Shown in pieces: positions 1 through 63,755 of a DNA stretch of 64,000 nucleotides. Under the pieces are notes generated by a model, which did no database searches, was not told the origin of the DNA, and saw only the letters and a program-made list of their open reading frames with translations. Each line of letters opens with the position of its first letter. Within the stretch, counting starts at the first letter, position 1. Source of the DNA: Lewinellaceae bacterium (GTDB lineage Bacteria; Bacteroidota; Bacteroidia; Chitinophagales; Saprospiraceae); the NCBI GenBank assembly GCA_020636025.1, contig JACJYQ010000001.1:417163-481162 (forward strand), read 5' to 3'. The translations under genes and the position numbers were made by a program.

Positions 1-124
1 GATCAGGGAGAATCCGGACAGGTATAGGGGGAAATCCGGACTTTATGGGGGAGTATCCGGACAATGAGGGGGGATATTCGGACATTTGAGTGCGGAGTGC
101 GGAGAGCGGAAAGATGAGGAGTGC
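1..124. repeat. Composite 7-nt-phased tandem repeat: four ~21-bp units (GGGGG-NN-ATCCGGAC-N5; 6-26, 27-46, 47-67, 68-89), then heptamers GTGCGGA GTGCGGA GAGCGGA AAGATGA GGAGTGC (90-124). It runs off the left window edge.
   Basis: Read directly. Unit spacing is 22/21/21 nt for the ATCCGGA/ATTCGGA cores at 12, 34, 55 and 76. The heptamers abut the HTCS stop codon (125-127, minus strand). Confidence 0.85.
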
Positions 125-3100
125 TTAGACTTCGGAGGGGAGTATGCCGAATCTGGATTTATAGAGTTTGGTGAAATGCTTGGTATCCTTGAAGCCTACC
201 TGGGCGGCTACTTGTTTTACCAGGGCATTTCCACTCTCCAGTAATTCTCTGGCCTGTTGCAGGCGCGCTTCCTGTATGTAATGATTTAGTGTCAGGCCAG
301 TAGTGGTCTTTACCCGGCGCTGCAGGTGCCTGCTGCTCATGTTTAACTGAGCTGCCAGGTAATCTGAATTGAAGTTGAAATGGTGCAGACTTTTATTGAC
401 TATCAGCTCTAATTCCTGAAGCCAGATAGAATCCTCTTCTGTAATCAGGACCTCTAAGGAACCTTTGGGTTGGCTCTCGATGTCAGGATCCAAAGAAAGA
501 GTAGCTTTCCTACGTCCGGATCTGTTGCGCGAATTTTCGAGCAGGTTTTTTATCCGGGCCATCAGTTCTTCTTCTACAAATGGTTTTAGCATATAATCGT
601 CCACACCTAATTTCAAACTGCGCAATTTTACCTTGATGTCTGATCTGGCTGTGAGCATTATAAATGGTATATGCCGGAGATGATCTTTTTCTTTTACCAT
701 TTCCAGCATGGTGATGCCATCCATGATGGGCATCATGACATCTGAAATGATCAGGTCAGGCCTCAGCCCTTCCAGCAACTTATCCAGTCCTTCCTTTCCA
801 TTGCCTGCACAAACAATGGTGTACTTGTTATCCAGGAAAGATTGCATGAATTGCTGAAGATCAAGGTTATCTTCTACGATTAATATTTGAGAACGCCTGT
901 CATTTTCAATGTCAGGACTGGCTGCTGGCATAAGTCCGTTTTTGCTTTCCTCGTGTTGGTTTTCGAGGTCTACTGTAAACTCTTCCTGCTCAGGGCTCGG
1001 GAGGTTTTCAGCTTTTTTGAATGGTATCCGCAAATAGAATTTACTGCCAGAACCATATTTGCTGTCAACCCAGACTTCTCCGCCCATTAACTGGGATAAT
1101 TCCTTGCAAAGAGAAAGCCCGATCCCTGTGCCCCCCTGTGTAATGGCGTCGGGTTGATTGGACTGATAGAAGCGATCAAAAATGTACGGAAGGTCTTTTG
1201 CGTGAATGCCCGGGCCCGTATCTAAAACCGTAACAAGGAGATCATCTTTTTCCTTTTCCACAGTCAGATCAACATGCCCGCCCACCGGGGTGAATTTTAT
1301 GGCATTGGACAAAAAGTTATTGATGATTTTTTCATATTTGTCTTTATCCAGCATCAGGGTTGTTTCCCTGGGCAGTTTAAAATGCATGTTAAAGTGAACC
1401 CGCTCACTGTCGCCAAATGAGCTGAACTGAGCGGAAAGTGGTTTGAAGAATTCTAGCAGCTTTACTGGCGTTTCTTTTAACTCTATTTTCCCTGTTTCCA
1501 GTTTTGACAGGTCGAGGATCTCATTCACCAGTTTTAAGAGCAGTTTCCCGTTCCGTTGCATCATTTGAAGCAACATCATGTCCTTTGTTTTCCAGGCTCC
1601 TTTTTTTATAAAATTCTCCAGAGGTCCTAGCAACAGGGTTAGTGGCGTACGAAGTTCATGACTGACATTGGCGAAGAACCGGCTTTTTAGCTTGTCGAGT
1701 TTTCTAAGTTCTTCTGCTTGCTCGGCAATGGTTGCTGTTCTTGTTTGTACCCTCTCTTCTAGTGTTCTGTTTCTCTGCTTCAGGCTATATGTGTGATACC
1801 TGACATACCCCATTATGGCGGCTGTGATTAACAGCAGAATGAGCAATATAAACCAGGTTTGCAGATAAAATGGTTTTAACACTCTGAGGTTAATAGCCAG
1901 CTCATTTTCTGACCATTTGCCACTGGCATCCTGACCTTTTATGCGCAAAATATGATTGCCAAAAGTCAGGTTTGCAAAGCGCAGCGTGTGTTCCTTTTGA
2001 TATATCCAATCCTTGTCAACCCCTTCAATCTTATAAGCATAAAAATTCTTTTCGGGTTTGTCATAGGTCAAGAGGGAAAATTCAATTTTGAATATCCGGT
2101 CAGAAGGTTTTACCGTAATTGTATTGGTGCTGCACAATTCGATAAATCGATCCATCATTTTATTTGTCGAACCATCGAATTGCTCGAAATGGGTAATGGC
2201 CAATCGTGGATTTATATAATCCTTTGTCCTCAACTCCCGGGGATGGAAATCACTGATGCCGTTTATAGAGCCAAAATAAATACGGCCATCAGAATCCTGA
2301 AAATGAGAAGTTCGGTTGAATTCGTTGTTGCAGATACCATCCTGTTCAAGATACGTAGTCACATTTTTTGACTTTGTATCAAAACGCATGATGCCGTAAT
2401 CACTCGATAGCCAAAGGTTCCCAACAGAATCCGGGTACACAGCATAAATCACATTGTTTGACAATCCATCCACCCTGTCGTAGTGTTCCAGATAAGGGTT
2501 CTGGTCGGATCCATCTCCTTTCGGCCACAAGCGGAAAAGGCCTTTATTGGTACCCAGCCAAATACTCTGATGCTCATCAACATAATCATGATACACGATA
2601 TCTGCAGGCAATCTATATTTATTTTCACCTTCCTGCCAATAACGCTCAACAATGCCCTTGTTCAAATTTACCAGAAAGTAACCTTTTGATGTACTTAAGT
2701 ACAAGTTGTCGCCATCTTCTCTGAAACGATAAACGAATGCATTCTCGAGCGCCTTAAAGCGCTCATCTGCCGAACTTTTGAACAGAAAGCCTTCATTAAA
2801 ACTGTACTTGCCGAAACCATTCTCTGTTCCAATCCATATATTACCATCGGCTGCTTCCTCAATATTCCAGACTATGGCGCCAGGTTGCCTGGTGGAATTC
2901 AGAATTTTTCCATTTGGGTCTATTAGCTTGACCTGAGTTCCTAGATTAACGGCAATATTGCCATCTCTTAAAACCTTTACAGCAATATAATAACTGCTCT
3001 GGGTTTCCTTGAATATTTGAGTGGCTATACCGGTATTGAGGTTAATACGGTGTAATCCTTTTACTTCCAGTTGACAATACAAGTTATTATCATCCTTGTC

Positions 3101-4159
3101 AATTGACCTTACCGCATTGCCTCCGTATTGAATACTACCGGGTTTGGTGAGCAGATTGTGGAATCGTTTTGTTTTGAAACTGAGTTTATATAGCCCAAAA
3201 TTAGCGCCAACCCAGAGCGTGTGATTCTTAGCCAAACAATGACCTCTGCCAAAATTTTTATCCAGGTTTATCGATTTGTCATCTAGCTCATAAACCTGTT
3301 TTTTGGCCTGGTTTATAATCTTTCCACTATGCCATAACAAGGTAGAATCACTCTGTCCCCATAAATCCTGTAGAGGAAAATAATCTTTTGAATTAGTATT
3401 GAACAAATTGGTCAACTCACCATTTTGTATAAGGAAGCAGGTTGCTATTTCAGACTTATTGATCGTATTTAAATAGAACAAACAAGGATCAAATCGCACG
3501 ATCCTGAGTGTTTTGGAAATACCGGATGTGTTTAGCGGATAGGTTTTCAGAATATTTCCAGATTTATCCGCTTTTACAGCCTTTTGCTCGGGCAGATTAA
3601 TCCCCCAGACAAAATCGGAGACATGAATTATACTGCTTACCCCTTTAGGGGCGGGAATTTTGACAAGCCCTGATCCAGGGTCATAATGCCAGATATTGGT
3701 ACCCTCAGGTTCGATCAGATATATCTCGCCTTTAGAGTTTGTGGAAATATTTAGATTTTCGAGCTTTGGGAGCTTGTAAGCACTGAATTTTTCCAGGAAA
3801 GTGGTCCTTTCACCGGTTCTCGGATTCCAAATGTCAAAATCTGTGGCTGACATTGGAGGTATCAGCCATAAAAACCCCTGACTATCTTCCAGGATATCAA
3901 AAAAATTATCACCGAGAAATCCATATCTGGAAGCGGGGAATGGTACAAACTCGTATCCATCAAATCGGCAAAGTCCCTCTTTTGTACCTATCCAGATAAA
4001 CCCTTCATGGTCTTCACAAATGCCGTTTACCTCTCTGTGAGGCAGTCCATCCTCAATGCCGTAATGCTCAGCCTGGATAAACTCTCCCTGGGCTTCTGCA
4101 TGGAAAGTTAATCCGCAAAAACCAATTAGACAGATAAGGAAGGATAAGCACAAGCGCAT
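125..4159 (-). CDS. Hybrid two-component system sensor kinase/response regulator with AraC-type output (HTCS)
   Basis: 1344-aa ORF with ATG start and signal-like N-terminus MRLCLSFLICLIGFCGLTFHAEA. It has a long propeller/Y_Y_Y-type periplasmic region, a TM segment (WFILLILLLITAAIMGYV) and a HisKA H-box (FFANVSHELRTPLT). It also has an ATPase G-box (GTGIGLSLCKEL), a receiver domain (ILIVEDN...ISDVMMP) and a C-terminal AraC HTH. Confidence 0.9.
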   Translation of the reverse strand: MRLCLSFLICLIGFCGLTFHAEAQGEFIQAEHYGIEDGLPHREVNGICEDHEGFIWIGTKEGLCRFDGYEFVPFPASRYGFLGDNFFDILEDSQGFLWLIPPMSATDFDIWNPRTGERTTFLEKFSAYKLPKLENLNISTNSKGEIYLIEPEGTNIWHYDPGSGLVKIPAPKGVSSIIHVSDFVWGINLPEQKAVKADKSGNILKTYPLNTSGISKTLRIVRFDPCLFYLNTINKSEIATCFLIQNGELTNLFNTNSKDYFPLQDLWGQSDSTLLWHSGKIINQAKKQVYELDDKSINLDKNFGRGHCLAKNHTLWVGANFGLYKLSFKTKRFHNLLTKPGSIQYGGNAVRSIDKDDNNLYCQLEVKGLHRINLNTGIATQIFKETQSSYYIAVKVLRDGNIAVNLGTQVKLIDPNGKILNSTRQPGAIVWNIEEAADGNIWIGTENGFGKYSFNEGFLFKSSADERFKALENAFVYRFREDGDNLYLSTSKGYFLVNLNKGIVERYWQEGENKYRLPADIVYHDYVDEHQSIWLGTNKGLFRLWPKGDGSDQNPYLEHYDRVDGLSNNVIYAVYPDSVGNLWLSSDYGIMRFDTKSKNVTTYLEQDGICNNEFNRTSHFQDSDGRIYFGSINGISDFHPRELRTKDYINPRLAITHFEQFDGSTNKMMDRFIELCSTNTITVKPSDRIFKIEFSLLTYDKPEKNFYAYKIEGVDKDWIYQKEHTLRFANLTFGNHILRIKGQDASGKWSENELAINLRVLKPFYLQTWFILLILLLITAAIMGYVRYHTYSLKQRNRTLEERVQTRTATIAEQAEELRKLDKLKSRFFANVSHELRTPLTLLLGPLENFIKKGAWKTKDMMLLQMMQRNGKLLLKLVNEILDLSKLETGKIELKETPVKLLEFFKPLSAQFSSFGDSERVHFNMHFKLPRETTLMLDKDKYEKIINNFLSNAIKFTPVGGHVDLTVEKEKDDLLVTVLDTGPGIHAKDLPYIFDRFYQSNQPDAITQGGTGIGLSLCKELSQLMGGEVWVDSKYGSGSKFYLRIPFKKAENLPSPEQEEFTVDLENQHEESKNGLMPAASPDIENDRRSQILIVEDNLDLQQFMQSFLDNKYTIVCAGNGKEGLDKLLEGLRPDLIISDVMMPIMDGITMLEMVKEKDHLRHIPFIMLTARSDIKVKLRSLKLGVDDYMLKPFVEEELMARIKNLLENSRNRSGRRKATLSLDPDIESQPKGSLEVLITEEDSIWLQELELIVNKSLHHFNFNSDYLAAQLNMSSRHLQRRVKTTTGLTLNHYIQEARLQQARELLESGNALVKQVAAQVGFKDTKHFTKLYKSRFGILPSEV

Positions 4160-4455
4160 AAACAGAAGGAATGTGTGTAATAGTCCTTTCTGATGGGATA
4201 AAATAAATCAGTATTTGGTAGTATTCCCGGTTTCCAGGTAAGGCAGGTCGAAAGATTGAAAAGCAAATGTACAAAGCGACCGATAAAAATAAAATTAACT
4301 TAAGTGAGCGTGACTATTTAAGGAGCAATTATCCTCTTTGCCGTTTTCAGACACATTTTCTTTCCAGCAATTTTGACAAATGTTGTTGTTTTACGACTCA
4401 AAGAGTTTGTTCTTTAAACGACTTAACCAATCAAACTTCTGTAAATAAATTTCTG

Positions 4456-7400
4456 ATGAAACTATTTCAAACCTGCCTTACTGTACTGATGCTGTCGGGT
4501 TTCGGCCTGCAGGCGCAGGATTATTCTGGAGTTATTCAGCGATATATGCTGGAGAACAGAGATAAATTGCAACTCGTGCAGACGGATATCGAAAACTGGA
4601 ACGTATCTGATCAGTATCTCACCAGGCACAACCAGGTGACCCATGTTTATCTCCAACAAACCGTCAACGGACTGAAAATACATAATGCCATTAGTTCAGT
4701 TGCGATTCAGAACAATGAAGTCAAATCCTTCAGCTCCGCCTTTCACGCAAATGCTGCAGAATTGACGAACGTTTCTGCCGGAGAGGAACATATATCGCCC
4801 AAAGAGGCGGTATTGCAAGCGGCAAATTCTGTAGGTATCACGATTGGAAATCCCGGCAACCGCAATACTGAGCCAAATGACAATAATGAATTTATTTTTG
4901 ATCCTTCAGGAGATGTATCAGCGCCTATAAAAGTATCCTTGTTATATCAGGCAACAGACGAAGATATTCGCCTTGCCTGGAACGTGGAACTGCAAACGGG
5001 AAGTGACTGGTGGAATATCCGCGTAGATGCTATCTCGGGGGAAGTGTTGGATAAAAACAATTACACGGTTTATTGCGAATTCTATGAAGATGCTTTTGAA
5101 ACAGACGGGACTAATCGCCATATACATGACTTTGATAATCAGGTTGTTGCCCAAAAAGTAAATACGACTCCATTTTATCGTGTGTTTCCTTTTCCGGGTG
5201 AAAGTCCGCGACATGTATCTCATACGCTTCTTAGTGACCCATCGATCCAACAGGCATCTCCTTATGGCTGGCATGATGTGGACGGGCAGCCTGGCGCAGA
5301 GTACACCATTACCCGTGGAAATAACGTATATGCTTCAGAAGACAGAGATGACAACAACAATCCGGGGTATAGTCCGGACGGAGGCGCCAGTCTGAATTTT
5401 GATTTCCCCTACACACCGGAAGTAGCCCCTGTTTTCTGGGAAAATGCCGCCATTACCAACCTGTTTTATGCCAATAATTTTATGCATGATGTGACATACA
5501 TCCATGGATTTGATGAGGCTGCCGGGAATTTTCAGGAAAACAATTATGGAAATGGTGGACAAGATGGTGATTTCGTGTGGGCCGATGCGCAGGATGGCTC
5601 AGGTACCAATAATGCCAATTTCTCCACCCCTCCGGATGGTAATAATGGACGCATGCAAATGTACATCTGGGATGTAAATAGCAGTGGGGGAGGTGACAGT
5701 ATGTCCATCAACATCCCAGGCAATTATCCGGATAAATTTAACGCTCCTGCCTCCAATTTCGGAGCAGTGTTGGGTATGCCCCTCACAGCCGATGTCGTGT
5801 TGGTAGATGATGGTGTAGATCCGACAATAGATGGTTGCCAGCCTATTATCAACGGTTCCGAATTGGCAGGAAAGATAGCCTTGCTTCAAAGAAGTGGTGT
5901 TTGCACTTACCCTGAAAGGGTGAAAGCTGCTCAGGACGCCGGAGCCATCGCAGCCATTGTGATGCAGAACACCAGTGCTCCTGCATTTCACATGCCTGGC
6001 GCCGATCCCGAAGTGGTCATTCCTTCATTTATGGTAAGCAAAGCACATGGACTTATCCTTACTGATGCACTTGTTGCGGGTACGCTAAATGTGACACTGT
6101 ATCCTACCTGCTGTAACTCAGACCGCGATAGTGATGTTGATAACGGTGTTATTGCGCACGAGTTTGGACACGGAATTTCCAATCGCCTTACTGGTGGACC
6201 TAGCAATACCGGCTGTCTGGGAAATGAGGAGCAAATGGGTGAAGGCTGGAGTGACTTTTTTGCTTTGATCACCACCATGCAACCGACGGATACCCGCTTC
6301 ACAGCCCGTGGAATTGGCACTTATGTTGAAAATCAGCCGCCAACCGGCGCCGGAATCCGGAATAAACGCTATTCCACGGATATGGCCGTAAATAATTACA
6401 CCTATGGATTGCTGGAACAGACTAGCGGTCAGGTGCACAATATTGGCGAATTCTGGTGTACCATGCTGAATGATTTAACATGGGATCTTATAGACCAATA
6501 TGGTTTTGAGCCCGACCTGACAAAATCTACCGGTGGTAATAACATAGCCATGCAACTGGTTCTGGACGGCATGAAGTTGCAGCGTTGCAACCCAGGATTT
6601 GTGGATGGACGGGACGGTATCCTGAAAGCAGATGAAATGAACTTTGGAGGCGCGAACAAATGTCTAATATGGCAAACATTTGCCCGTCGGGGTCTGGGCT
6701 GGTCTGCCGACCAGGGAAGCAGTAACGATTACGCTGACGGTGTGGAGGCTTTTGATCTTCCACAGTTTTGCATGACGGCAACTGTCGAGCCACTTGCTGT
6801 CTTCGGGGTAGATCGAAAAAATAGTTGCCTGGATCTGGCAACCTTCCATTTCTTCGACAGCTCACAAAACATTGTGCATGAATGGCTTTGGGATTTTGGT
6901 GATGGACAAACATCGACTGATATAAATCCTGTACATACCTACGCACAGGAAGGTACCTACACAGTTACCCTTATGGTTACCAACAACATTGGGTCGAATT
7001 CATTGGTGAAAACAGATTATATCAATGTAAGCAGCTTCGCACCCATTACTGTATCCACAGATAGTATATGCGCCGGACAAACTGCTACGATTACGGCCAA
7101 TCCAAATATAGCCGGCAATACGGCTGAATGGACAGATGAAAACGGAAAGGTGTTGTTTTCTGGTGACAGCTTCACCACACCAATATTGACGCAAACGACC
7201 ACTTTTTATGTTAGCGAGTCTGAACCAGCGCCTATCCAGCATGTAGGCCCGGATGACTTTGGAGATGGACAAAATCACTCATCACAATTTGGTGGTTTTG
7301 TGAGATTTACGGCTGAAAAACCATTAACCATTATTTCCGTTCTGGTACGAGCAGAAGGCGAAGGCGTGCGGGAAATTCTCCTGATTGACGGATTTGGCGC

Positions 7401-8190
7401 TACGATTGCATCGGCCAGTCCATTAATTCCGGATGGCGACAGCCGGGTAGAGTTAAACTTTGAGGTTCCTCTGGAAGGAAGCTATACTTTGGCCATTGTA
7501 CCGCCTGCTAATTTGTATCGCACAAATAACAATGCAAGCTATCCATATTCGATTCCGGGGCTTGTTTCCATTACCGGAGCAAGTGGACAAAACCAATCCC
7601 GCTACTATTATTTCTACGATTGGGAAATACAGGCCGCTCATTGCAAAAGCGAGGCTACTCCATTCACAGTAAACATTATTCCTGGTCCGGTACCTGATTT
7701 TAGTTATGCAAAAACTGGATTGGCAGTTTCCTTTACCAACCTGACAAGCGGATCTCCCACCAGCATTATGTGGGATTTTGGTGATGGAAATACTTCCACG
7801 ATGCCAAATCCAATGCACACTTTTGCCTCAATTGGTACTTATACCGTTACGCTAACAGTTAGTGATGGAAATTGCACTACTTCATTTAGTCAGGTTGTTG
7901 ATTTTACTTCTGCTACAACAGAGCTTGGAATTTCGTCTTTCCATGTCGCCATTTCACCAAATCCGGCATTTGAAAGCGCACGCATTTCCATTTTAGGAGA
8001 AGAAAATTCAAAAATCAGAAGGATTGGACTTTACAGTGCAGATGGTAGACGAGTACGGGCTTATTCCCTGGATCAATCGGTAAACAGTGTGTTTACCCTA
8101 GACCTCCGCGGTTTGAGTTCCGGAATCTATTATGTCAAAGTAGAAGCTGAATCCGGAACAGAAGTTGAAAAACTGATCATTAACAGATAG
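4456..8190 (+). CDS. Secreted M36 (fungalysin-like) zinc metalloprotease with PA-like insert, two PKD-like domains and a T9SS type-A C-terminal sorting domain
   Basis: Zinc site VIAHEFGHGISNRLTGGP...MGEGWSDFFA. Signal peptide MKLFQTCLTVLMLSGFGLQAQ starts at ATG 4456, and the tracked ORF start 4267 adds 63 non-signal residues. PKD repeats WDFGDGQTST.. and WDFGDGNTST.. are present. The C-terminus is ISPNPAFESARISI...GIYYVKVEAESG. Confidence 0.85.
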   Translation: MKLFQTCLTVLMLSGFGLQAQDYSGVIQRYMLENRDKLQLVQTDIENWNVSDQYLTRHNQVTHVYLQQTVNGLKIHNAISSVAIQNNEVKSFSSAFHANAAELTNVSAGEEHISPKEAVLQAANSVGITIGNPGNRNTEPNDNNEFIFDPSGDVSAPIKVSLLYQATDEDIRLAWNVELQTGSDWWNIRVDAISGEVLDKNNYTVYCEFYEDAFETDGTNRHIHDFDNQVVAQKVNTTPFYRVFPFPGESPRHVSHTLLSDPSIQQASPYGWHDVDGQPGAEYTITRGNNVYASEDRDDNNNPGYSPDGGASLNFDFPYTPEVAPVFWENAAITNLFYANNFMHDVTYIHGFDEAAGNFQENNYGNGGQDGDFVWADAQDGSGTNNANFSTPPDGNNGRMQMYIWDVNSSGGGDSMSINIPGNYPDKFNAPASNFGAVLGMPLTADVVLVDDGVDPTIDGCQPIINGSELAGKIALLQRSGVCTYPERVKAAQDAGAIAAIVMQNTSAPAFHMPGADPEVVIPSFMVSKAHGLILTDALVAGTLNVTLYPTCCNSDRDSDVDNGVIAHEFGHGISNRLTGGPSNTGCLGNEEQMGEGWSDFFALITTMQPTDTRFTARGIGTYVENQPPTGAGIRNKRYSTDMAVNNYTYGLLEQTSGQVHNIGEFWCTMLNDLTWDLIDQYGFEPDLTKSTGGNNIAMQLVLDGMKLQRCNPGFVDGRDGILKADEMNFGGANKCLIWQTFARRGLGWSADQGSSNDYADGVEAFDLPQFCMTATVEPLAVFGVDRKNSCLDLATFHFFDSSQNIVHEWLWDFGDGQTSTDINPVHTYAQEGTYTVTLMVTNNIGSNSLVKTDYINVSSFAPITVSTDSICAGQTATITANPNIAGNTAEWTDENGKVLFSGDSFTTPILTQTTTFYVSESEPAPIQHVGPDDFGDGQNHSSQFGGFVRFTAEKPLTIISVLVRAEGEGVREILLIDGFGATIASASPLIPDGDSRVELNFEVPLEGSYTLAIVPPANLYRTNNNASYPYSIPGLVSITGASGQNQSRYYYFYDWEIQAAHCKSEATPFTVNIIPGPVPDFSYAKTGLAVSFTNLTSGSPTSIMWDFGDGNTSTMPNPMHTFASIGTYTVTLTVSDGNCTTSFSQVVDFTSATTELGISSFHVAISPNPAFESARISILGEENSKIRRIGLYSADGRRVRAYSLDQSVNSVFTLDLRGLSSGIYYVKVEAESGTEVEKLIINR

Positions 8191-8195
8191 GCTTC

Positions 8196-8283
8196 GATAT
8201 ACGAGATACAAAATCCGAGATATGATATTTGAAATTATCAAAAAAATCGGATTTCGTATCTCGGATTTCGTATCTCGTATATC
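8196..8283 (+). terminator. Long inverted repeat (27-nt arms, 26/27 complementary) built from heptamer-like units. Probable terminator hairpin after the protease gene.
   Basis: Left arm GATATACGAGATACAAAATCCGAGATA (8196-8222). Right arm TATCTCGGATTTCGTATCTCGTATATC (8257-8283). The right side also holds a direct 14-mer CGGATTTCGTATCT x2 (8248-8275). It starts 6 nt after the TAG at 8188-8190. Confidence 0.5.
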
Positions 8284-52944: not shown

Positions 52945-52976
52945 TATCAATGTATCAATGTATCAATGTACCAATG
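52945..52976. repeat. Octamer tandem array TATCAATG x3 + TACCAATG
   Basis: Read directly. It lies between the TIM-barrel gene stop (52985-87) and the GMC start (52922). Confidence 0.9.
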
Positions 52977-53932: not shown

Positions 53933-53968
53933 AATTAGCTAATTGGCTAATTAGCCAATTAGCTAATT
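53933..53968. repeat. Perfect 36-bp palindrome made of 8-mers AATTAGCT AATTGGCT AATTAGCC AATTAGCT AATT
   Basis: Reverse complement checked by hand and identical to itself. It begins 3 nt after the prfB stop (53972-74, minus strand). Confidence 0.9.
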
Positions 53969-55082: not shown

Positions 55083-55101
55083 GGAAACGGAAAAATTTTA
55101 A

Positions 55102-55136
55102 TGATCAGAGGTTAGTGATCAGTGATTAGTGGTTTA
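55102..55136. repeat. Heptamer tandem array TGATCAG AGGTTAG TGATCAG TGATTAG TGGTTTA (consensus TGRTYAG)
   Basis: Read directly. The last unit overlaps the FKBP gene stop codon (55134-36). The array ends 20 nt upstream of the prfB ATG. Confidence 0.8.
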
Positions 55137-60212: not shown

Positions 60213-60974
60213 TTGTATTCAAATCAAATTTTGGTGAGAACATTCAGGAAAATTTGGACAGTGTGGGCGGTAACCATATTTCTGGTTATGATGTTTTGCA
60301 GTCTACCCATCATTGGGTTGAATATGATGGTTACGCCCGGCAGAAGAGCCTTGCGTAACAACATCTATTTTCTTCACCACATTTTTACGCCTTTTTTTCT
60401 ATTCATTGTTGGCATCGCAGTTCAGGCTGAAGGCCGGCGAAAACTCAATCGCAAGCAATCCTATGTGATTGTCGGAAATCACCGATCCTCCATTGATTTT
60501 ATCGTTCATGCCCATGCCTTCCCTGGTGTATTCCGGTTTTTGGCAAAACAGGAATTGTTGAAAATTCCTGTTTTTGGGTTGATCGTACGAAAAATGTGTT
60601 TGATCGTGGATAGAAGCAGCCCTATGAGCAGAGCGAGAAGTGTGGTTGCCTTAAAACAGCAGTTGGAAGATGGCTGGAGTATTATGATATATCCGGAAGG
60701 AAGCCGCAATCGCAAGCCCGAAGCTCTTGGTCAGTTTTACGATGGTGCCTTTCGCATCGCCATCCAAACCAAGGCACCTTTAGCAGTTCAAACTTTCGTG
60801 AATGTCTCTGAAATGACCGGAGCTGATGGTTCCGGACTTCGCCCAGGTATTGCCAGAGTCGTGTGGGAAGAGCCAATTCCTACTGATGGAATGACTGCTG
60901 AAGATATACCTGCCTTGCGCAGTAAGGTGGAAGACATGATGAAAAACCGAATTAAAGCTTATTCGAAAAGCTGA
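60213..60974 (+). CDS. 1-acyl-sn-glycerol-3-phosphate acyltransferase family (PlsC/LPLAT)
   Basis: H-x4-D motif (VGNHRSSIDF) and YPEGSRN block. The start is uncertain: the tracked start is TTG 60213 and the first ATG is at 60288. Confidence 0.8.
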   Translation: MYSNQILVRTFRKIWTVWAVTIFLVMMFCSLPIIGLNMMVTPGRRALRNNIYFLHHIFTPFFLFIVGIAVQAEGRRKLNRKQSYVIVGNHRSSIDFIVHAHAFPGVFRFLAKQELLKIPVFGLIVRKMCLIVDRSSPMSRARSVVALKQQLEDGWSIMIYPEGSRNRKPEALGQFYDGAFRIAIQTKAPLAVQTFVNVSEMTGADGSGLRPGIARVVWEEPIPTDGMTAEDIPALRSKVEDMMKNRIKAYSKS

Positions 60975-61951
60975 TGATAGTCGTTGTTATCCCTGTCGAG
61001 CGTAACAGGCGGTTCTTTTAATTCCAGTTTTTGTTCATCTTTTTTTTGCTTCGTGCTACCGGCATGATCCATGCGTAATAGCGGGCTGTCTCTTTCCCAG
61101 CGCTCCAAAAGCTCCAAACCTTCTTCCTCAAAAACGCCGTTTTGTAAATCTATGCTGTCCATCAGGTTTCTGCTGGTATCCATAAAGCGTTCCATTTCTC
61201 CAACTTTAGAACCAACATCTTCGGCCAGTGTTTCCATGGCTGATTCGAACATCGCTTTCTTGTCTGGGTCACCAGACAAGACGCTCATGGCAGATTTCAT
61301 AGCGCTGTGTCCACTCTTAATTACCCGGTACTCCTGTTCCTTTATTTTAATCTGATCCTGAGTGTCTTCGAGTACCAATTCCGAACTTTCATACATTTTA
61401 GTCAGTATGCGCTTCAGGACGTCCATCCTTTTATGCAGGTCTTGATATTTCTCATTGGCATCTTGTAACCTTCCCGCTTTTCTGGTAGCCAACGCCATAT
61501 TCTTATCCTGACCTTTCTTTTTCGCTTCCTCAGCAATACTGAGGTTCATTTTGATGTCATTCAGGTTTTTTTGCATCAAACCTTCCAACTGGCGCATTTG
61601 CGCTCTAAGCACTCCAATTTGTTTGCTAAGCTTTGTCAGATTTGATCTCAGATCACTTAGGTAGGACTTTAAAATTGATATCGGATCAATCTTGACAAAC
61701 AACCCAGTAATTCCGCGCATAATGGACTTATACAGATACCAGACCAGATTTCTGGATTTGGGATCAAGAACCATGTAGACAACGACTCCTAAAGCCGCCA
61801 ATAGTCCGGCCAGCGTCAAAGTATTGCTGGCAAGGGCTACCAGGGTAGGCAAAATGCTGCTCCAAAACACCCCGATACCCACGATGGCGCCAATTAAAAA
61901 GATAACTCCGGTTACACCTTCCGGTCTCCTCCAAAACGACTTTTGTGACAT
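60959..61951 (-). CDS. Membrane-anchored coiled-coil protein, possibly PspA/IM30/ESCRT-III-like
   Basis: Two predicted TM helices (GVIFLIGAIVGIGVFWSSIL; LAGLLAALGVVVYMVL), then ~200 aa of heptad-rich helix starting IDPISILKSYLSDLRSNLTKLSKQIGVLRAQMRQLE, and an acidic tail. Confidence 0.6.
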   Translation of the reverse strand: MSQKSFWRRPEGVTGVIFLIGAIVGIGVFWSSILPTLVALASNTLTLAGLLAALGVVVYMVLDPKSRNLVWYLYKSIMRGITGLFVKIDPISILKSYLSDLRSNLTKLSKQIGVLRAQMRQLEGLMQKNLNDIKMNLSIAEEAKKKGQDKNMALATRKAGRLQDANEKYQDLHKRMDVLKRILTKMYESSELVLEDTQDQIKIKEQEYRVIKSGHSAMKSAMSVLSGDPDKKAMFESAMETLAEDVGSKVGEMERFMDTSRNLMDSIDLQNGVFEEEGLELLERWERDSPLLRMDHAGSTKQKKDEQKLELKEPPVTLDRDNNDYHQLFE

Positions 61952-61993
61952 GTTTTTACTGAATTTCAGGACCTGATCCTGGCCCAGTACATT

Positions 61994-62539
61994 TTACAGG
62001 TACTTATGCATATTTTCCACATCCTTATCTATTTGCAAAAGAACAGCTTTATTGGTTTTCTCGAAATTGACTTTTGCCTTTTCAAGTTTTTCAGCTTCCT
62101 GCTTACTGGTGTTTTCTGCCTGATTTACCTGATTTAGATAATCTCCCATCTCGTTATTCAACCTTTCAATTTCGGCCTTATGACGATCTATCTGATCGCG
62201 CAATCTCGAAATTTCATGTTGCCTTGAAGCAATTTTGGTCTTGCTCTGGTTTTCAAGCGCCTCGTTAAACTGACCCATTTCCTTTTCAATCAGGTTGCGG
62301 TAATAGCCGGCGGTTTCCAGCAGCTTTTCTTTGGTAATACCTAAGGTCGCTGCAGTTGTTACCGCGCTTTTGTAGGCTGTTGGTTCATCCAGATTTATTT
62401 CCTGAAGTTGCAAGACAGCCCTTTTGAATTCAAGGTAATCGAAGCCCGGTAAATTGTTTGATTCAAGCGCCTGTACCAGAAAATCGAGACTTTTTTCGTC
62501 CAGATCCTCAGATTGGAACATGGATTTTATTGTAAGCAT
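61994..62539 (-). CDS. Small all-helical/coiled-coil protein (181 aa), unknown function
   Basis: ATG start and no signal peptide. The C-terminal half is heptad-rich (RLRDQIDRHKAEIERLNNEMGDYLNQVNQAE...). It lies 42 nt upstream of the 330-aa gene on the same strand. Confidence 0.6.
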   Translation of the reverse strand: MLTIKSMFQSEDLDEKSLDFLVQALESNNLPGFDYLEFKRAVLQLQEINLDEPTAYKSAVTTAATLGITKEKLLETAGYYRNLIEKEMGQFNEALENQSKTKIASRQHEISRLRDQIDRHKAEIERLNNEMGDYLNQVNQAENTSKQEAEKLEKAKVNFEKTNKAVLLQIDKDVENMHKYL

Positions 62540-62545
62540 AAACTT

Positions 62546-62573
62546 GAGTGGTGAGAGATGAGAGATGAGAGCG
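62546..62573. repeat. Heptamer array GAGTGGT GAGAGAT GAGAGAT GAGAGCG
   Basis: Read directly, 7-34 nt upstream of the ATG at 62539 (minus-strand gene). The 10-mer GAGAGCGGAA (62567-76) also occurs at 102-111. Confidence 0.8.
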
Positions 62574-62688
62574 GAATAAATTGACTGGGTAAAATTAATG
62601 ATAAATGCCCATCAGGGTTAGCTGCAAGTCGACGGTTTAACCAATTTATCGGTTAAAATTCAATTTGACCCATGAAAACAATTTTATT

Positions 62689-62765
62689 TCCGCACTCCGC
62701 ACTCCGCACTCCGCACTCCGCACTCCGCACTCCGCACTCCGCACTCCGCACTCCGCACTCCGCAC
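62689..62765. repeat. Perfect 11-copy heptamer array: (TCCGCAC)11 on the plus strand, (GTGCGGA)11 in pfkA sense
   Basis: Counted base by base: 77 nt with no substitutions. It directly abuts the pfkA TGA (62766-68), and the minus strand reads TGA GTGCGGA GTGCGGA... Confidence 0.95.
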
Positions 62766-63755
62766 TCACTGCGCCAAAATATGCGCCATCCTCAAAAGCT
62801 CCTTGTTGAAAGTCTTTTTCTTGGAAATGGCATCTTCAAAGGTTGTATAGTGGATGTTGTTATTTCTGATGCCAACCATTACGCTATTTTTACCTATGAG
62901 TAGGGCTTCAACGGAGGCAAAACCCAAAATAGAGGCGAGAACTCTGTCGAATCCGCTGGGCGATCCGCCGCGTTGAAGGTGACCAATTACGGTTACTTTA
63001 ATATCGTCGTACAGGTCAATTTGCTTGCCTACATGGTCTGCGATATCATACACGGTTCCCATTTTGTTTCCCTCTGCAACAATCACTATGCTAAACAGCT
63101 TGGCTCTTTTTGCACTGCGTTTGAGCAGCCGTACCAGATCATCAAGTGAAATGTCTTCTTCTGGAATCAGCACCCCACCGGCTCCCGCTGCAATGGCTGT
63201 ATGTAAGGCGATATATCCGGAATGGCGGCCCATCACTTCTACGAAAAACAAGCGATTGTGTGAGTCGGCCGTATCCCGGATCTTATCGACAGCCTCAACA
63301 GATGTGTTTACCGCAGTATCAAATCCAATTGAAAAATCAGTACCGTAAAGATCGTTGTCTATGGTACCTGGAATGCCAATCATTTTGAAATCGGGATATT
63401 CTTGCAAGAACTTGTTTGCACCTGTAAAAGTACCATTGCCACCTACGGCAATTAAAGCATCGATATCATGATCCCGAAGGTTTTCATAAGCGATTTTTCT
63501 GCCTTCTGGTGTCATAAAACGCTTACTTCTAGCGGTTTTTAGAATGGTGCCGCCTCGGTGAATAATGTTGCCTACATCCGATGTTTCCAGCCTTTTGATG
63601 CTGCCTTCGATCATGCCCTCATACCCACGGTTGATTCCATAAATGTGCAGATCATTATTAAAGGCATTACGAACAACTGCACGGATGGCAGCATTCATAC
63701 CAGGTGCATCACCTCCTGAAGTTAGGACAGCAATTCGTTTTATCTCTTTTGACAT
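62766..63755 (-). CDS. pfkA: ATP-dependent 6-phosphofructokinase
   Basis: VLTSGGDAPGMNAAIR, PGTIDNDL and MGRHSGYIAL motifs. 329 aa. Confidence 0.95.
   Translation of the reverse strand: MSKEIKRIAVLTSGGDAPGMNAAIRAVVRNAFNNDLHIYGINRGYEGMIEGSIKRLETSDVGNIIHRGGTILKTARSKRFMTPEGRKIAYENLRDHDIDALIAVGGNGTFTGANKFLQEYPDFKMIGIPGTIDNDLYGTDFSIGFDTAVNTSVEAVDKIRDTADSHNRLFFVEVMGRHSGYIALHTAIAAGAGGVLIPEEDISLDDLVRLLKRSAKRAKLFSIVIVAEGNKMGTVYDIADHVGKQIDLYDDIKVTVIGHLQRGGSPSGFDRVLASILGFASVEALLIGKNSVMVGIRNNNIHYTTFEDAISKKKTFNKELLRMAHILAQ

What the first reader, a model, noticed from the sequence alone, without database searches (positions are those of the whole stretch)
62689..62768. Perfect (GTGCGGA)x11 microsatellite fused to the pfkA stop codon, with the same unit and junction repeated 62 kb away
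The 77 nt contain no substitutions, which implies recent or ongoing slippage or strong selection. The array starts at the base after TGA. The stop codon itself looks like a variant of the repeat's GGA, so gain or loss of units cannot alter PfkA. The identical TGA GTGCGGA GTGCGGA junction occurs on the plus strand at 87-103. The GG-N5-GG periodicity could also support two-tetrad G-quadruplexes in the pfkA 3' UTR. The array lies about 150 nt upstream of the coiled-coil operon, so it might act on either gene. The tracked ORF 62665-62850 (SALRTPH repeats) is just its translation.
Basis: seen in the sequence. Interest (0 to 1): 0.65.

Follow-up and report, generated by a model that had tools for sequence, protein, structure and literature searches.

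The report
Hypervariable 7-base repeat after pfkA
A perfect 7-base tandem repeat sits directly behind the stop codon of the phosphofructokinase gene of a Saprospiraceae bacterium and changes copy number (2 to 15 or more) between near-identical strains. It is a new example of an already described, still unexplained class of bacterial heptamer repeats, not a new kind of element.

Summary
Window 62689-62765 (- strand) is (GTGCGGA)x11 without a substitution, and it begins at the base after the pfkA TGA. The repeat register also takes in the GA of the stop.

Twenty public contigs encode the identical PfkA. Complete alleles carry 2, 11, 14 and 15 units, and most short-read contigs break inside the array. 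It is therefore a live, slippage-prone VNTR that never touches PfkA.

The "same junction" at 87-103 exists as sequence, but its TGA ends no called gene. The repeat there runs the opposite way relative to its neighbours, and copy number is fixed in seven assemblies.

No terminator, Rfam family or significant RNA fold was found. A thermodynamic G-quadruplex model does not favour a two-tetrad G4.

(GTGCGGA)n arrays occur in many phyla. They abut the stop codon of the upstream gene on the coding strand, form convergent inverted pairs (39 to 0) and are sometimes inserted in frame in genes. The first two properties, and length variation, were published for GGGAATC in Xanthomonas and GGGGA(C/T)T in Nostoc.

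Verdict: new member of a known kind, function unproven, most likely near-neutral transcribed spacer DNA.

The parts
62689..62765 (-). (GTGCGGA)x11 perfect heptanucleotide array. TRF extends it to 62767 because the GA of the stop codon is in register.
   Evidence: Alleles of 2, 11, 14, 15 and at least 12 units in other assemblies.
62766..62768 (-). pfkA TGA stop codon, overlapped in register by the array. The same ...GCGCAGTGA gene end exists without any array in a related Saprospiraceae lineage (L167).
62766..63755 (-). pfkA (6-phosphofructokinase, 329 aa), the 5' neighbour of the array.
   Evidence: (PF00365)
62576..62688 (-). A/T-rich spacer of about 113 nt, unique in all sequence held. It contains a weak 10-nt-arm hairpin at 62636-62657. 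Close relatives have no counterpart: their pfkA-to-next-gene spacers are only 28-55 nt.
62548..62575 (-). Degenerate pyrimidine-rich heptamers TCCGCTC TCATCTC TCATCTC TCACCAC, 8 nt upstream of the ORF's ATG (26 nt upstream of the start called in L001). The first unit is one mismatch from the reverse complement of GTGCGGA. TCTCTCA-type units are shared with the P0006 lineage. Together with the array they give the G-rich-then-C-rich order seen in this repeat class elsewhere.
   Evidence: (TGAGAGA x2.9 on +)
61994..62539 (-). 181-aa coiled-coil-type gene, the 3' neighbour. It is syntenic with pfkA in the two closest lineages examined (P0002, P0006) but not in four more distant ones.
60959..61951 (-). 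330-aa gene with a weak PspA/IM30 match, next gene of the same-strand cluster.
87..110 (+). Second site: TGA GTGCGGA GTGCGGA GAGCGGA. It lies in the spacer after the 1344-aa hybrid sensor kinase (125-4159, -) and reads TCCGCAC in the sense of both flanking genes. Copy number is fixed in 7 assemblies.

Best explanation
The array is a heptanucleotide microsatellite (a 'long simple sequence repeat', or VNTR) in the spacer between pfkA and the next same-strand gene of a Saprospiraceae bacterium. Shown: it is perfect, it lies outside the coding sequence, and it expands and contracts between near-identical strains. Shown: it has the anatomy of a described class of bacterial heptamer arrays, with the G-rich strand on the coding strand of the 5' neighbour and abutting or overlapping its stop codon. 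Shown: it is absent from all six other Saprospiraceae pfkA lineages examined. Inferred: the copy-number changes arise by slipped-strand mispairing at replication, which keeps the units homogeneous. Inferred: the array is carried on pfkA read-through or polycistronic RNA. Inferred: it is selectively near-neutral. A 2-unit allele exists in an otherwise near-identical strain, so a long array is not required. Any effect would come from the length of the pfkA 3' UTR or intercistronic RNA, not from a folded structure or a G-quadruplex.
For: The array is perfect and far beyond chance. Complete alleles of 2, 11, 14 and 15 units sit next to 100% identical PfkA and 99.5-100% identical flanks, and most short-read contigs end inside the array. 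The array is lineage-specific: six other Saprospiraceae pfkA lineages lack it, including one with the identical GCGCAGTGA gene end. Class membership: in 883 kb around 120 other (GTGCGGA)n sites there are 85 further perfect heptamer arrays, against 4, 4, 4 and 2 for periods 5, 6, 8 and 9. Stops abut the 5' side of the G-rich array in 20 of 30 cases against 2 of 29 on the 3' side. Convergent pairs outnumber the reverse order 39 to 0. Rehm et al. 2015 describe the same features for GGGAATC and GGGGA(C/T)T, and heptamer over-representation with polymerase slippage as the proposed cause is cited from Mrazek 2007. There is no Rfam match, no terminator-like site, no significant fold (z = -0.76 for the region; array alone z = -2.2 with an open centroid) and no G4 in the model.
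Against: Near-neutrality is inferred, not measured. The strong, orientation-specific abutment to stop codons and the absolute convergent polarity across phyla are not predicted by random slippage alone. They hint at a function or at a directional generating process. Every assembly of this species keeps at least 2 units. No transcript data were available, so co-transcription and RNA-level effects are untested. The 2-unit allele comes from a single assembly.
Confidence: 0.62

Rival explanations
1. Copy-number-tunable RNA element. The array, on the pfkA transcript, changes 3'-end stability or the coupling and spacing to the downstream coiled-coil/PspA-like genes, for example by pairing of GGAGUGCGGAA with the UUCCGCUCUC segment 113 nt downstream. 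Strains with different unit numbers would then express these genes differently.
For: The minimum-energy fold pairs the last units with the downstream C/U-rich heptamers. In the two closest lineages the same spacer is only 28-55 nt and consists of other heptamer arrays just before the start codon, with copy differences between assemblies. Class-wide abutment to stop codons suggests selection on position.
Against: The fold is not better than shuffles (z = -0.76). Only one downstream unit is complementary. A 2-unit allele is viable. Rehm et al. could not find a regulatory role for the analogous Xanthomonas repeats. No transcript data are available.
Confidence: 0.18
2. One arm of a convergent inverted heptamer-array element, laid down by a directional process other than simple slippage (for example 3'-end extension at a DNA break, or an unrecognised mobile or enzymatic system). 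The degenerate TCCGCTC/TCATCTC units would be the decayed partner arm.
For: Adjacent arrays up to 600 nt apart are G-rich-then-C-rich in 39 cases and never the reverse. The same trend holds for unrelated heptamer units, 10 to 3. Such pairs sit in frame inside real genes: Mfd, a UvrA loop, U32 peptidase, a histidine kinase. The window shows the same order, with a 113-nt spacer.
Against: The arms of pairs diverge independently (ATGCGGA against TCCGCAC, GTTCGGA against TCCGCAC). Spacers are unique, and no target duplication or conserved end was seen. Many different units occur, which argues against one template. No associated gene was identified. The partner in the window is very degenerate.
Confidence: 0.1
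3. G-quadruplex-forming element in the pfkA 3' UTR or in the DNA.
For: There are eleven GG runs with period 7. The related class in Xanthomonas and Nostoc forms G4s in vitro.
Against: The runs are GG, not GGG, and the loops are 5 nt. The ViennaRNA G4 model gives no G4 in the minimum-energy structure for the array or its context, while a GGGAAUC control does form one. Arrays of this family commonly have only 3-4 units and many degenerate units.
Confidence: 0.05
4. Assembly or sequencing artefact.
For: Short-read contigs break in the array, and the 2-unit allele could be suspected of collapse.
Against: Independent assemblies from NCBI, ENA, JGI and Logan all show the array at the same junction. 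Three span it completely, with 14, 15 and 2 units and identical flanks. The same unit forms arrays in over 120 contigs of other genomes, including megabase-scale contigs.
Confidence: 0.02
5. Array of binding sites for an RNA- or DNA-binding protein, for example a CsrA-like GGA sponge or a factor that recognises TGCGGA.
For: There are eleven evenly spaced GGA/GGAG motifs. Related units share the CGGA core (ATGCGGA, TTGCGGA, GAGCGGA). MacGregor 2015 proposed S1, Csp or CsrA binding for TAACTGA heptamers.
Against: There is no Rfam hit, and the GGA motifs are not presented in hairpin loops. From general knowledge, not tested here, CsrA is generally absent from Bacteroidota. Many unrelated heptamer units behave the same way. 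Copy number ranges from 2 to 15.
Confidence: 0.03

Closest known systems
G-rich heptameric SSRs of Xanthomonas (GGGAATC) and Nostoc (GGGGA(C/T)T), Rehm et al. 2015, PMC4692102
   Same: 7-nt unit in perfect or near-perfect tandem arrays of 2-26 units. Mostly intergenic. The G-rich strand lies on the coding strand within 50 bp of, or overlapping, the stop codon, and is closer to the 5' neighbour whatever that gene's orientation. Frequent convergent inverted pairs. Length varies between close relatives. Not linked to surface or virulence genes. Function unknown.
   Different: The unit is GTGCGGA with GG rather than GGG runs, so G4 formation, the property those authors emphasised, is not supported. 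The host is a Bacteroidota (Saprospiraceae). Only two sites were seen in 64 kb, so genome-wide abundance in this organism is unknown.
Long simple sequence repeats (LSSR) of prokaryotes, with heptanucleotides the most abundant class (Mrazek et al. 2007, as summarised in PMC4679880 and PMC4692102)
   Same: A tandem array longer than chance, with unit length 7 and a non-coding location. Polymerase slippage is the proposed cause of the heptamer excess. The heptamer excess is reproduced here: 85 arrays against 2-4 for neighbouring periods.
   Different: LSSR is a statistical category, not a mechanism. It says nothing about stop-codon abutment or polarity.
Cyanobacterial STRR heptamers and TAACTGA direct repeats of Beggiatoaceae, Cyanobacteria and some Bacteroidetes (MacGregor 2015, PMC4679880)
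   Same: Heptamer direct repeats scattered through intergenic regions. Arrays of up to 43 copies occur in some Bacteroidetes, contigs break at them, and close relatives lack them at the same locus. The heptamer arrays just upstream of the start codon in this bacterium's relatives (AACAACT, TCATTCA/TCTCTCA) resemble the TAACTGA placement.
   Different: The unit sequence differs. TAACTGA sets lie mostly a few nt upstream of start codons in forward orientation, whereas this array abuts a stop codon.
Phase-variation (contingency) SSRs of host-adapted pathogens
   Same: Hypermutable tandem repeat with strain-to-strain copy-number differences caused by slippage.
   Different: The array is not inside a reading frame. 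It is not shown to lie between promoter elements. Its neighbours are a central-metabolism gene and a coiled-coil/PspA-like pair rather than surface antigens. No ON/OFF consequence is evident.
REP elements and Rickettsia palindromic elements (recalled from general knowledge, not tested)
   Same: The convergent heptamer-array pairs seen in other phyla are short extragenic palindromes placed just after stop codons. Like RPEs, they sometimes sit in frame inside genes.
   Different: The window's array has no well-matched inverted partner. The spacers of pairs are unique and the arms are tandem arrays, not a conserved palindromic unit. No RAYT-type transposase link was examined.

Membership tests
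Heptanucleotide LSSR / G-rich heptamer SSR class (Mrazek 2007; Rehm 2015) | Head-to-tail array of a 7-nt unit, longer than expected by chance | tested here: met
   11.3 copies, 100% matches, TRF score 158. 0 of 100 shuffles reach the observed count.
Heptanucleotide LSSR / G-rich heptamer SSR class (Mrazek 2007; Rehm 2015) | Non-coding location, with the G-rich strand on the coding strand within 50 bp of or overlapping the stop codon of the 5' neighbour | tested here: met
   The array starts at the base after the pfkA TGA and shares its GA. The same rule holds for (GTGCGGA)n elsewhere: 20 of 30 against 2 of 29.
Heptanucleotide LSSR / G-rich heptamer SSR class (Mrazek 2007; Rehm 2015) | Unit-number variation between closely related genomes | tested here: met
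   2, 11, 14, 15 and at least 12 units beside identical PfkA.
Heptanucleotide LSSR / G-rich heptamer SSR class (Mrazek 2007; Rehm 2015) | Many dispersed arrays of the same or related unit in the genome | tested here: inconclusive
   Only two GTGCGGA sites and one other heptamer-built inverted pair were found in 64 kb. The whole genome could not be scanned. Other Saprospiraceae and Chitinophagales MAGs do carry such arrays (L077, L094, L117, L122).
Heptanucleotide LSSR / G-rich heptamer SSR class (Mrazek 2007; Rehm 2015) | G-quadruplex-competent unit (runs of at least 3 G), specific to the Rehm subclass | tested here: not met
   GG runs only. No G4 appears in the ViennaRNA G4-aware fold, whereas the GGGAAUC control is positive.
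Phase-variation contingency locus | Repeat inside a reading frame or between the core promoter elements of the controlled gene | tested here: not met
   The array lies after the stop codon and 150 nt upstream of the next start. No promoter-like site spans it. Bacteroidota-type promoters are not covered by the scan.
Intrinsic terminator | G+C-rich hairpin followed by a U tract | tested here: not met
   No terminator-like site lies between pfkA and the next gene. The array folds weakly with an open centroid. A relative (L165) does have a classic terminator at this position.
REP / REPIN / MITE-type palindromic element | Conserved palindromic unit or terminal inverted repeats, present in multiple copies | tested here: not met
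   No well-matched inverted arm lies near the array. The spacer is unique in all sequence held.
Known structured RNA (Rfam) | Match to a curated covariance model | tested here: not met
   No match up to E = 10 in 61900-63000 on either strand.
CsrA/Rsm-type GGA sponge RNA | Multiple GGA motifs presented in hairpin loops, and a CsrA homologue in the genome | tested here: inconclusive
   GGA occurs 11 times, but no hairpin presentation was found and there is no Rfam hit. Presence of CsrA in this genome was not tested.

The most novel reading that the evidence does not exclude
Bacterial heptamer arrays may not be passive slippage products. They may be laid down by a directional process, for example templated 3'-end extension at DNA breaks or an unrecognised enzyme or mobile system. 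Such a process would explain four things: why G-rich arrays always point towards each other (39 to 0), why they stop exactly at the coding boundary of their 5' neighbour, why the same unit recurs in at least ten phyla, and why pairs are found inserted in frame in conserved genes. The pfkA array would then be a recently active, still expanding product of that process in a Saprospiraceae population.
Probability: 0.1. Interest if true: 0.8.

Novelty: new member of a known kind. Interest (0 to 1): 0.4.

Why it matters
For this locus the array gives a natural, population-level VNTR marker in an uncultured activated-sludge or freshwater Saprospiraceae lineage. It is also a clean test case, with alleles of 2 to 15 units and otherwise identical flanks, for asking whether heptamer arrays behind stop codons do anything to mRNA fate. 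More broadly, the class is abundant, spans many phyla and is still unexplained a decade after its description. The rules seen here are stop-codon abutment on the coding strand, strict convergent polarity and in-frame insertion into genes. They constrain any mechanism and show that the phenomenon is not tied to G-quadruplex-competent units. Practically, such arrays break short-read assemblies and create spurious ORFs (SALRTPH or VRSAECG peptides) and odd insertions in annotated proteins.

Tried and rejected
(1) An Rfam search of the region at E up to 10 found nothing.

(2) The sigma-70 promoter and intrinsic-terminator scan found nothing at the array. Bacteroidota promoters are not covered, and my visual search for a TAnnTTTG motif was inconclusive.

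(3) RNA folding of the array and of the whole spacer showed no structure better than shuffles.

(4) G4-aware folding was negative.

(5) BLAST of the spacer against everything fetched gave no second copy, so it is not a MITE.

(6) My first two ORF-based gene callers on the high-G+C loci put many arrays 'inside' genes. I distrusted this until translation, Pfam and a UvrA alignment showed that several really are in-frame insertions. Distances to start codons from those callers are unreliable and were not used. Only stop-codon distances were used.

(7) The metagenome scan for the reverse (C-rich-first) order with a 4-34 nt gap found one hit, a fold-back palindrome at a contig end. With a 4-120 nt gap the sample gives 14 loci against 0.

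(8) Both orders were absent from viral contigs.

(9) A loose approximate-repeat script over-called and was discarded, except that it pointed to the inverted repeat at 8196-8283.

(10) A literature search for the unit or its peptides returned only primer matches.

(11) I looked for target-site duplications or conserved ends around inverted pairs and found none.

Full report
OBSERVATION. The window holds (GTGCGGA)x11 without a substitution on the - strand at 62689-62765. Tandem Repeats Finder reports 62689-62767, 11.3 copies, 100% matches, score 158. The extra 0.3 copy is the GA of the stop codon. The 14-mer dimer occurs 13 times at up to 2 mismatches against 0.25 expected, and no shuffle reached that count. 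The ORF 62766-63755 (-) is a 329-aa 6-phosphofructokinase (PF00365). Its TGA is followed at once by the array. The + strand ORFs through the array are only its translation, SALRTPH repeats.

COPY NUMBER IS POLYMORPHIC. Twenty public contigs encode exactly this PfkA. Where the contig spans the array, the alleles are 2 units (L001, an 882-kb contig of GCA_041392585.1, whose next 10 kb are 99.48% identical to the window), 14 units (L008) and 15 units (L010), against 11 in the window. L005 has at least 12 units with one GTGCTGA variant, and L009 has at least 12. Five further contigs simply end inside the array. Flanks are 99.9-100% identical. The array is therefore real, it defeats short-read assemblers, and it changes length on a within-species time scale without ever touching PfkA.

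THE SECOND SITE. TGA GTGCGGA GTGCGGA GAGCGGA at 87-110 (+) is present. Extending the locus in seven assemblies shows that both flanking called genes, the 1344-aa hybrid sensor kinase and the next gene, are on the other strand, and no gene was called on the + strand there. The + frame that ends in this TGA is open at least as far as the window start and was not followed further upstream. In the sense of its neighbours the repeat reads TCCGCTC TCCGCAC TCCGCAC. It is followed by four copies of a 21-nt unit that begins TCCGGAT. Copy number is identical in all seven assemblies. This site shares the unit but is not a second stop-codon fusion, and it is not variable.

THE LOCUS IN RELATIVES. The organism is a Saprospiraceae; the sources name the PfkA homologues that way. 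The nearest other lineages have 86% and 84% identical PfkA.
- In the P0002 lineage the spacer to the homologous 182-aa gene is 28 nt and contains roughly three AACAACT-type units.
- In the P0006 lineage the spacer is 42-55 nt and consists of (TCATTCA TCTCTCA) repeats, with a different number in two assemblies.
- The window keeps TCTCTCA-type units next to the downstream start codon: TCCGCTC TCATCTC TCATCTC TCACCAC at 62548-62575. Its spacer is 227 nt because of the array plus about 113 nt of unique A/T-rich sequence.
- Four more distant lineages have other neighbours and no array. One has a textbook hairpin terminator. One (L167) has the identical ...GCGCAGTGA gene end with no repeat, so the TGA predates the array.

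The array is thus a recent, lineage-specific acquisition in a spacer that tends to hold heptamer repeats.

STRUCTURE AND SIGNALS. There is no Rfam match and no terminator-like or promoter-like site at the array. The 261-nt RNA from the end of pfkA to the next start folds no better than shuffles (z = -0.76). The array alone gives z = -2.2, but through isolated pairs and with an unpaired centroid. The only notable pairing is between the last units and UUCCGCUCUC 113 nt downstream. With ViennaRNA's G-quadruplex model switched on, neither the array nor its context adopts a G4, whereas a GGGAAUC control array does.

THE WIDER CLASS. They come from Verrucomicrobiota, Planctomycetota, Chloroflexota, Acidobacteriota, Gemmatimonadota, Nitrospirota, Calditrichia, Cyanobacteria, Actinomycetota and Bacteroidota, including three Saprospiraceae MAGs. 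About 0.3 hits would be expected by chance. Arrays are usually 3-4 units; 10 or more is rare. They are often flanked by degenerate units such as ATGCGGA, TTGCGGA and GAGCGGA. In the 883 kb around them there are 85 further perfect heptamer arrays of about 50 different units, against 4, 4, 4 and 2 arrays of periods 5, 6, 8 and 9. These genomes therefore have a heptamer-specific repeat phenomenon rather than a GTGCGGA-specific one. Three regularities emerged.

(i) Position. A coding-like ORF on the same strand ends within 15 nt upstream of the G-rich array in 20 of the 30 cases with such a gene within 150 nt. A convergent gene ends within 15 nt downstream in only 2 of 29 (Fisher p = 1.9e-6). Examples in Saprospiraceae and Chitinophagales (L077, L117, L122) begin right after TGA.

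(ii) Polarity. Neighbouring arrays of opposite orientation up to 600 nt apart are always G-rich first and then C-rich, 39 to 0. Unrelated heptamer units show the same trend, 10 to 3. The arms are often not complementary unit for unit, spacers are unique, and no target duplication was seen.

(iii) Arrays inside genes. Many arrays lie inside genuine genes, read in frame as SALRTPH or VRSAECG. Hosts include Mfd, a histidine kinase ATPase domain and a U32 peptidase. In planctomycete UvrA one loop carries different lineage-specific inserts, including a complete convergent pair.

WHAT IS ALREADY KNOWN. Heptanucleotides are the most abundant long SSR class in many bacteria, and polymerase slippage has been proposed as the cause (Mrazek 2007, as summarised). 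Rehm et al. 2015 (PMC4692102) described GGGAATC in Xanthomonas and GGGGA(C/T)T in Nostoc. They reported arrays of 2-26 units that are mostly intergenic and lie closer to the 5' neighbouring ORF whatever its orientation. On the coding strand these arrays sit within 50 bp of, or overlapping, the stop codon. There are 70-75 convergent inverted pairs per Xanthomonas genome, and length differs between close relatives. They found no link to surface genes and no identified function. MacGregor 2015 (PMC4679880) described TAACTGA heptamers, including long arrays in some Bacteroidetes that relatives lack and that break assemblies. Regularities (i) and (ii) are therefore not new in kind. What is added here is a different, non-G4 unit, a much wider phyletic spread, and the in-frame gene insertions.

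INTERPRETATION. The best-supported reading is a slippage-driven heptanucleotide VNTR of this known class, sitting in transcribed spacer DNA between pfkA and the next gene. Identity, variability, harmlessness to PfkA and class anatomy are shown. Slippage as the mechanism, co-transcription and near-neutrality are inferred. The existence of a 2-unit allele argues that a long array is dispensable. The class-wide positional and polarity rules are not explained by random slippage. They keep open both an RNA-level role, such as 3' UTR or intercistronic tuning, and a directional generating process. The G-quadruplex idea and the 'second stop-codon junction' are not supported.

VERDICT. This is a real and nicely polymorphic feature, a new member of a known but mechanistically unexplained kind. 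Interest is moderate for the locus itself and higher for the class-level rules it led to.

Noticed in passing
window 8196-8283: A 33-nt-arm inverted repeat (91% complementary, 22-nt loop) built from heptamer/14-mer units (GAGATAC GAAATCC)n ... (GGATTTC GTATCTC)n. It starts 5 nt after the stop of the 1307-aa gene 4267-8190, with the purine-rich arm first. This is the same 'convergent heptamer pair behind a stop codon' layout seen in other phyla.
   Followed up: partly
window 6-84 (continues upstream of the window; L132 10085-10170): Four copies of a 21-23-nt unit (TCCGGAT + C-rich tail, i.e. 3 x 7 nt) directly after the TCCGCAC units in the spacer behind the sensor kinase. In the sense of the flanking genes this is a C-rich, G-poor stretch of about 130 nt with period 7. 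It is invariant in 7 assemblies.
   Followed up: partly
L138-L146 (relatives), just downstream of pfkA: In related Saprospiraceae the short pfkA-to-next-gene spacer is made almost wholly of other heptamer repeats ending at the start codon: AACAACT-type, and TCATTCA/TCTCTCA. The unit number differs between L144 and L145.
   Followed up: partly
L038, L054, L060, L034, L096, L119, L121 (other phyla): Heptamer arrays are inserted in frame in conserved genes (Mfd, U32 peptidase, histidine kinase HATPase domain, UvrA), giving SALRTPH, VRSAECG, HASRITH (unit ACGCATC) and KDEGRRT (unit TTCGTCC) peptides. In UvrA one loop carries different inserts in different planctomycete lineages.
   Followed up: partly
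L011-L130: Strict polarity of neighbouring opposite-strand arrays: G-rich then C-rich in 39 cases, the reverse in 0, with unique spacers of 4-440 nt. No explanation was established.
   Followed up: partly
L150 1-110: The only metagenome hit with the reverse order is a perfect 110-nt palindrome starting at base 1 of a 1-kb contig. It is most likely a fold-back assembly artefact.
   Followed up: yes
L151-L164 (viral contigs): Fourteen IMG/VR contigs carry (GTGCGGA)x3-5, some followed by degenerate C-rich heptamers. The repeat class therefore also occurs in phage or prophage DNA.
   Followed up: no
window 52945-52976, 53933-53968, 55098-55131: Other short tandem repeats listed by TRF: TATCAATG x4, AATTAGCT x4.5, and a 7/14-nt unit TGATCAG x4.3. 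They were not examined.
   Followed up: no
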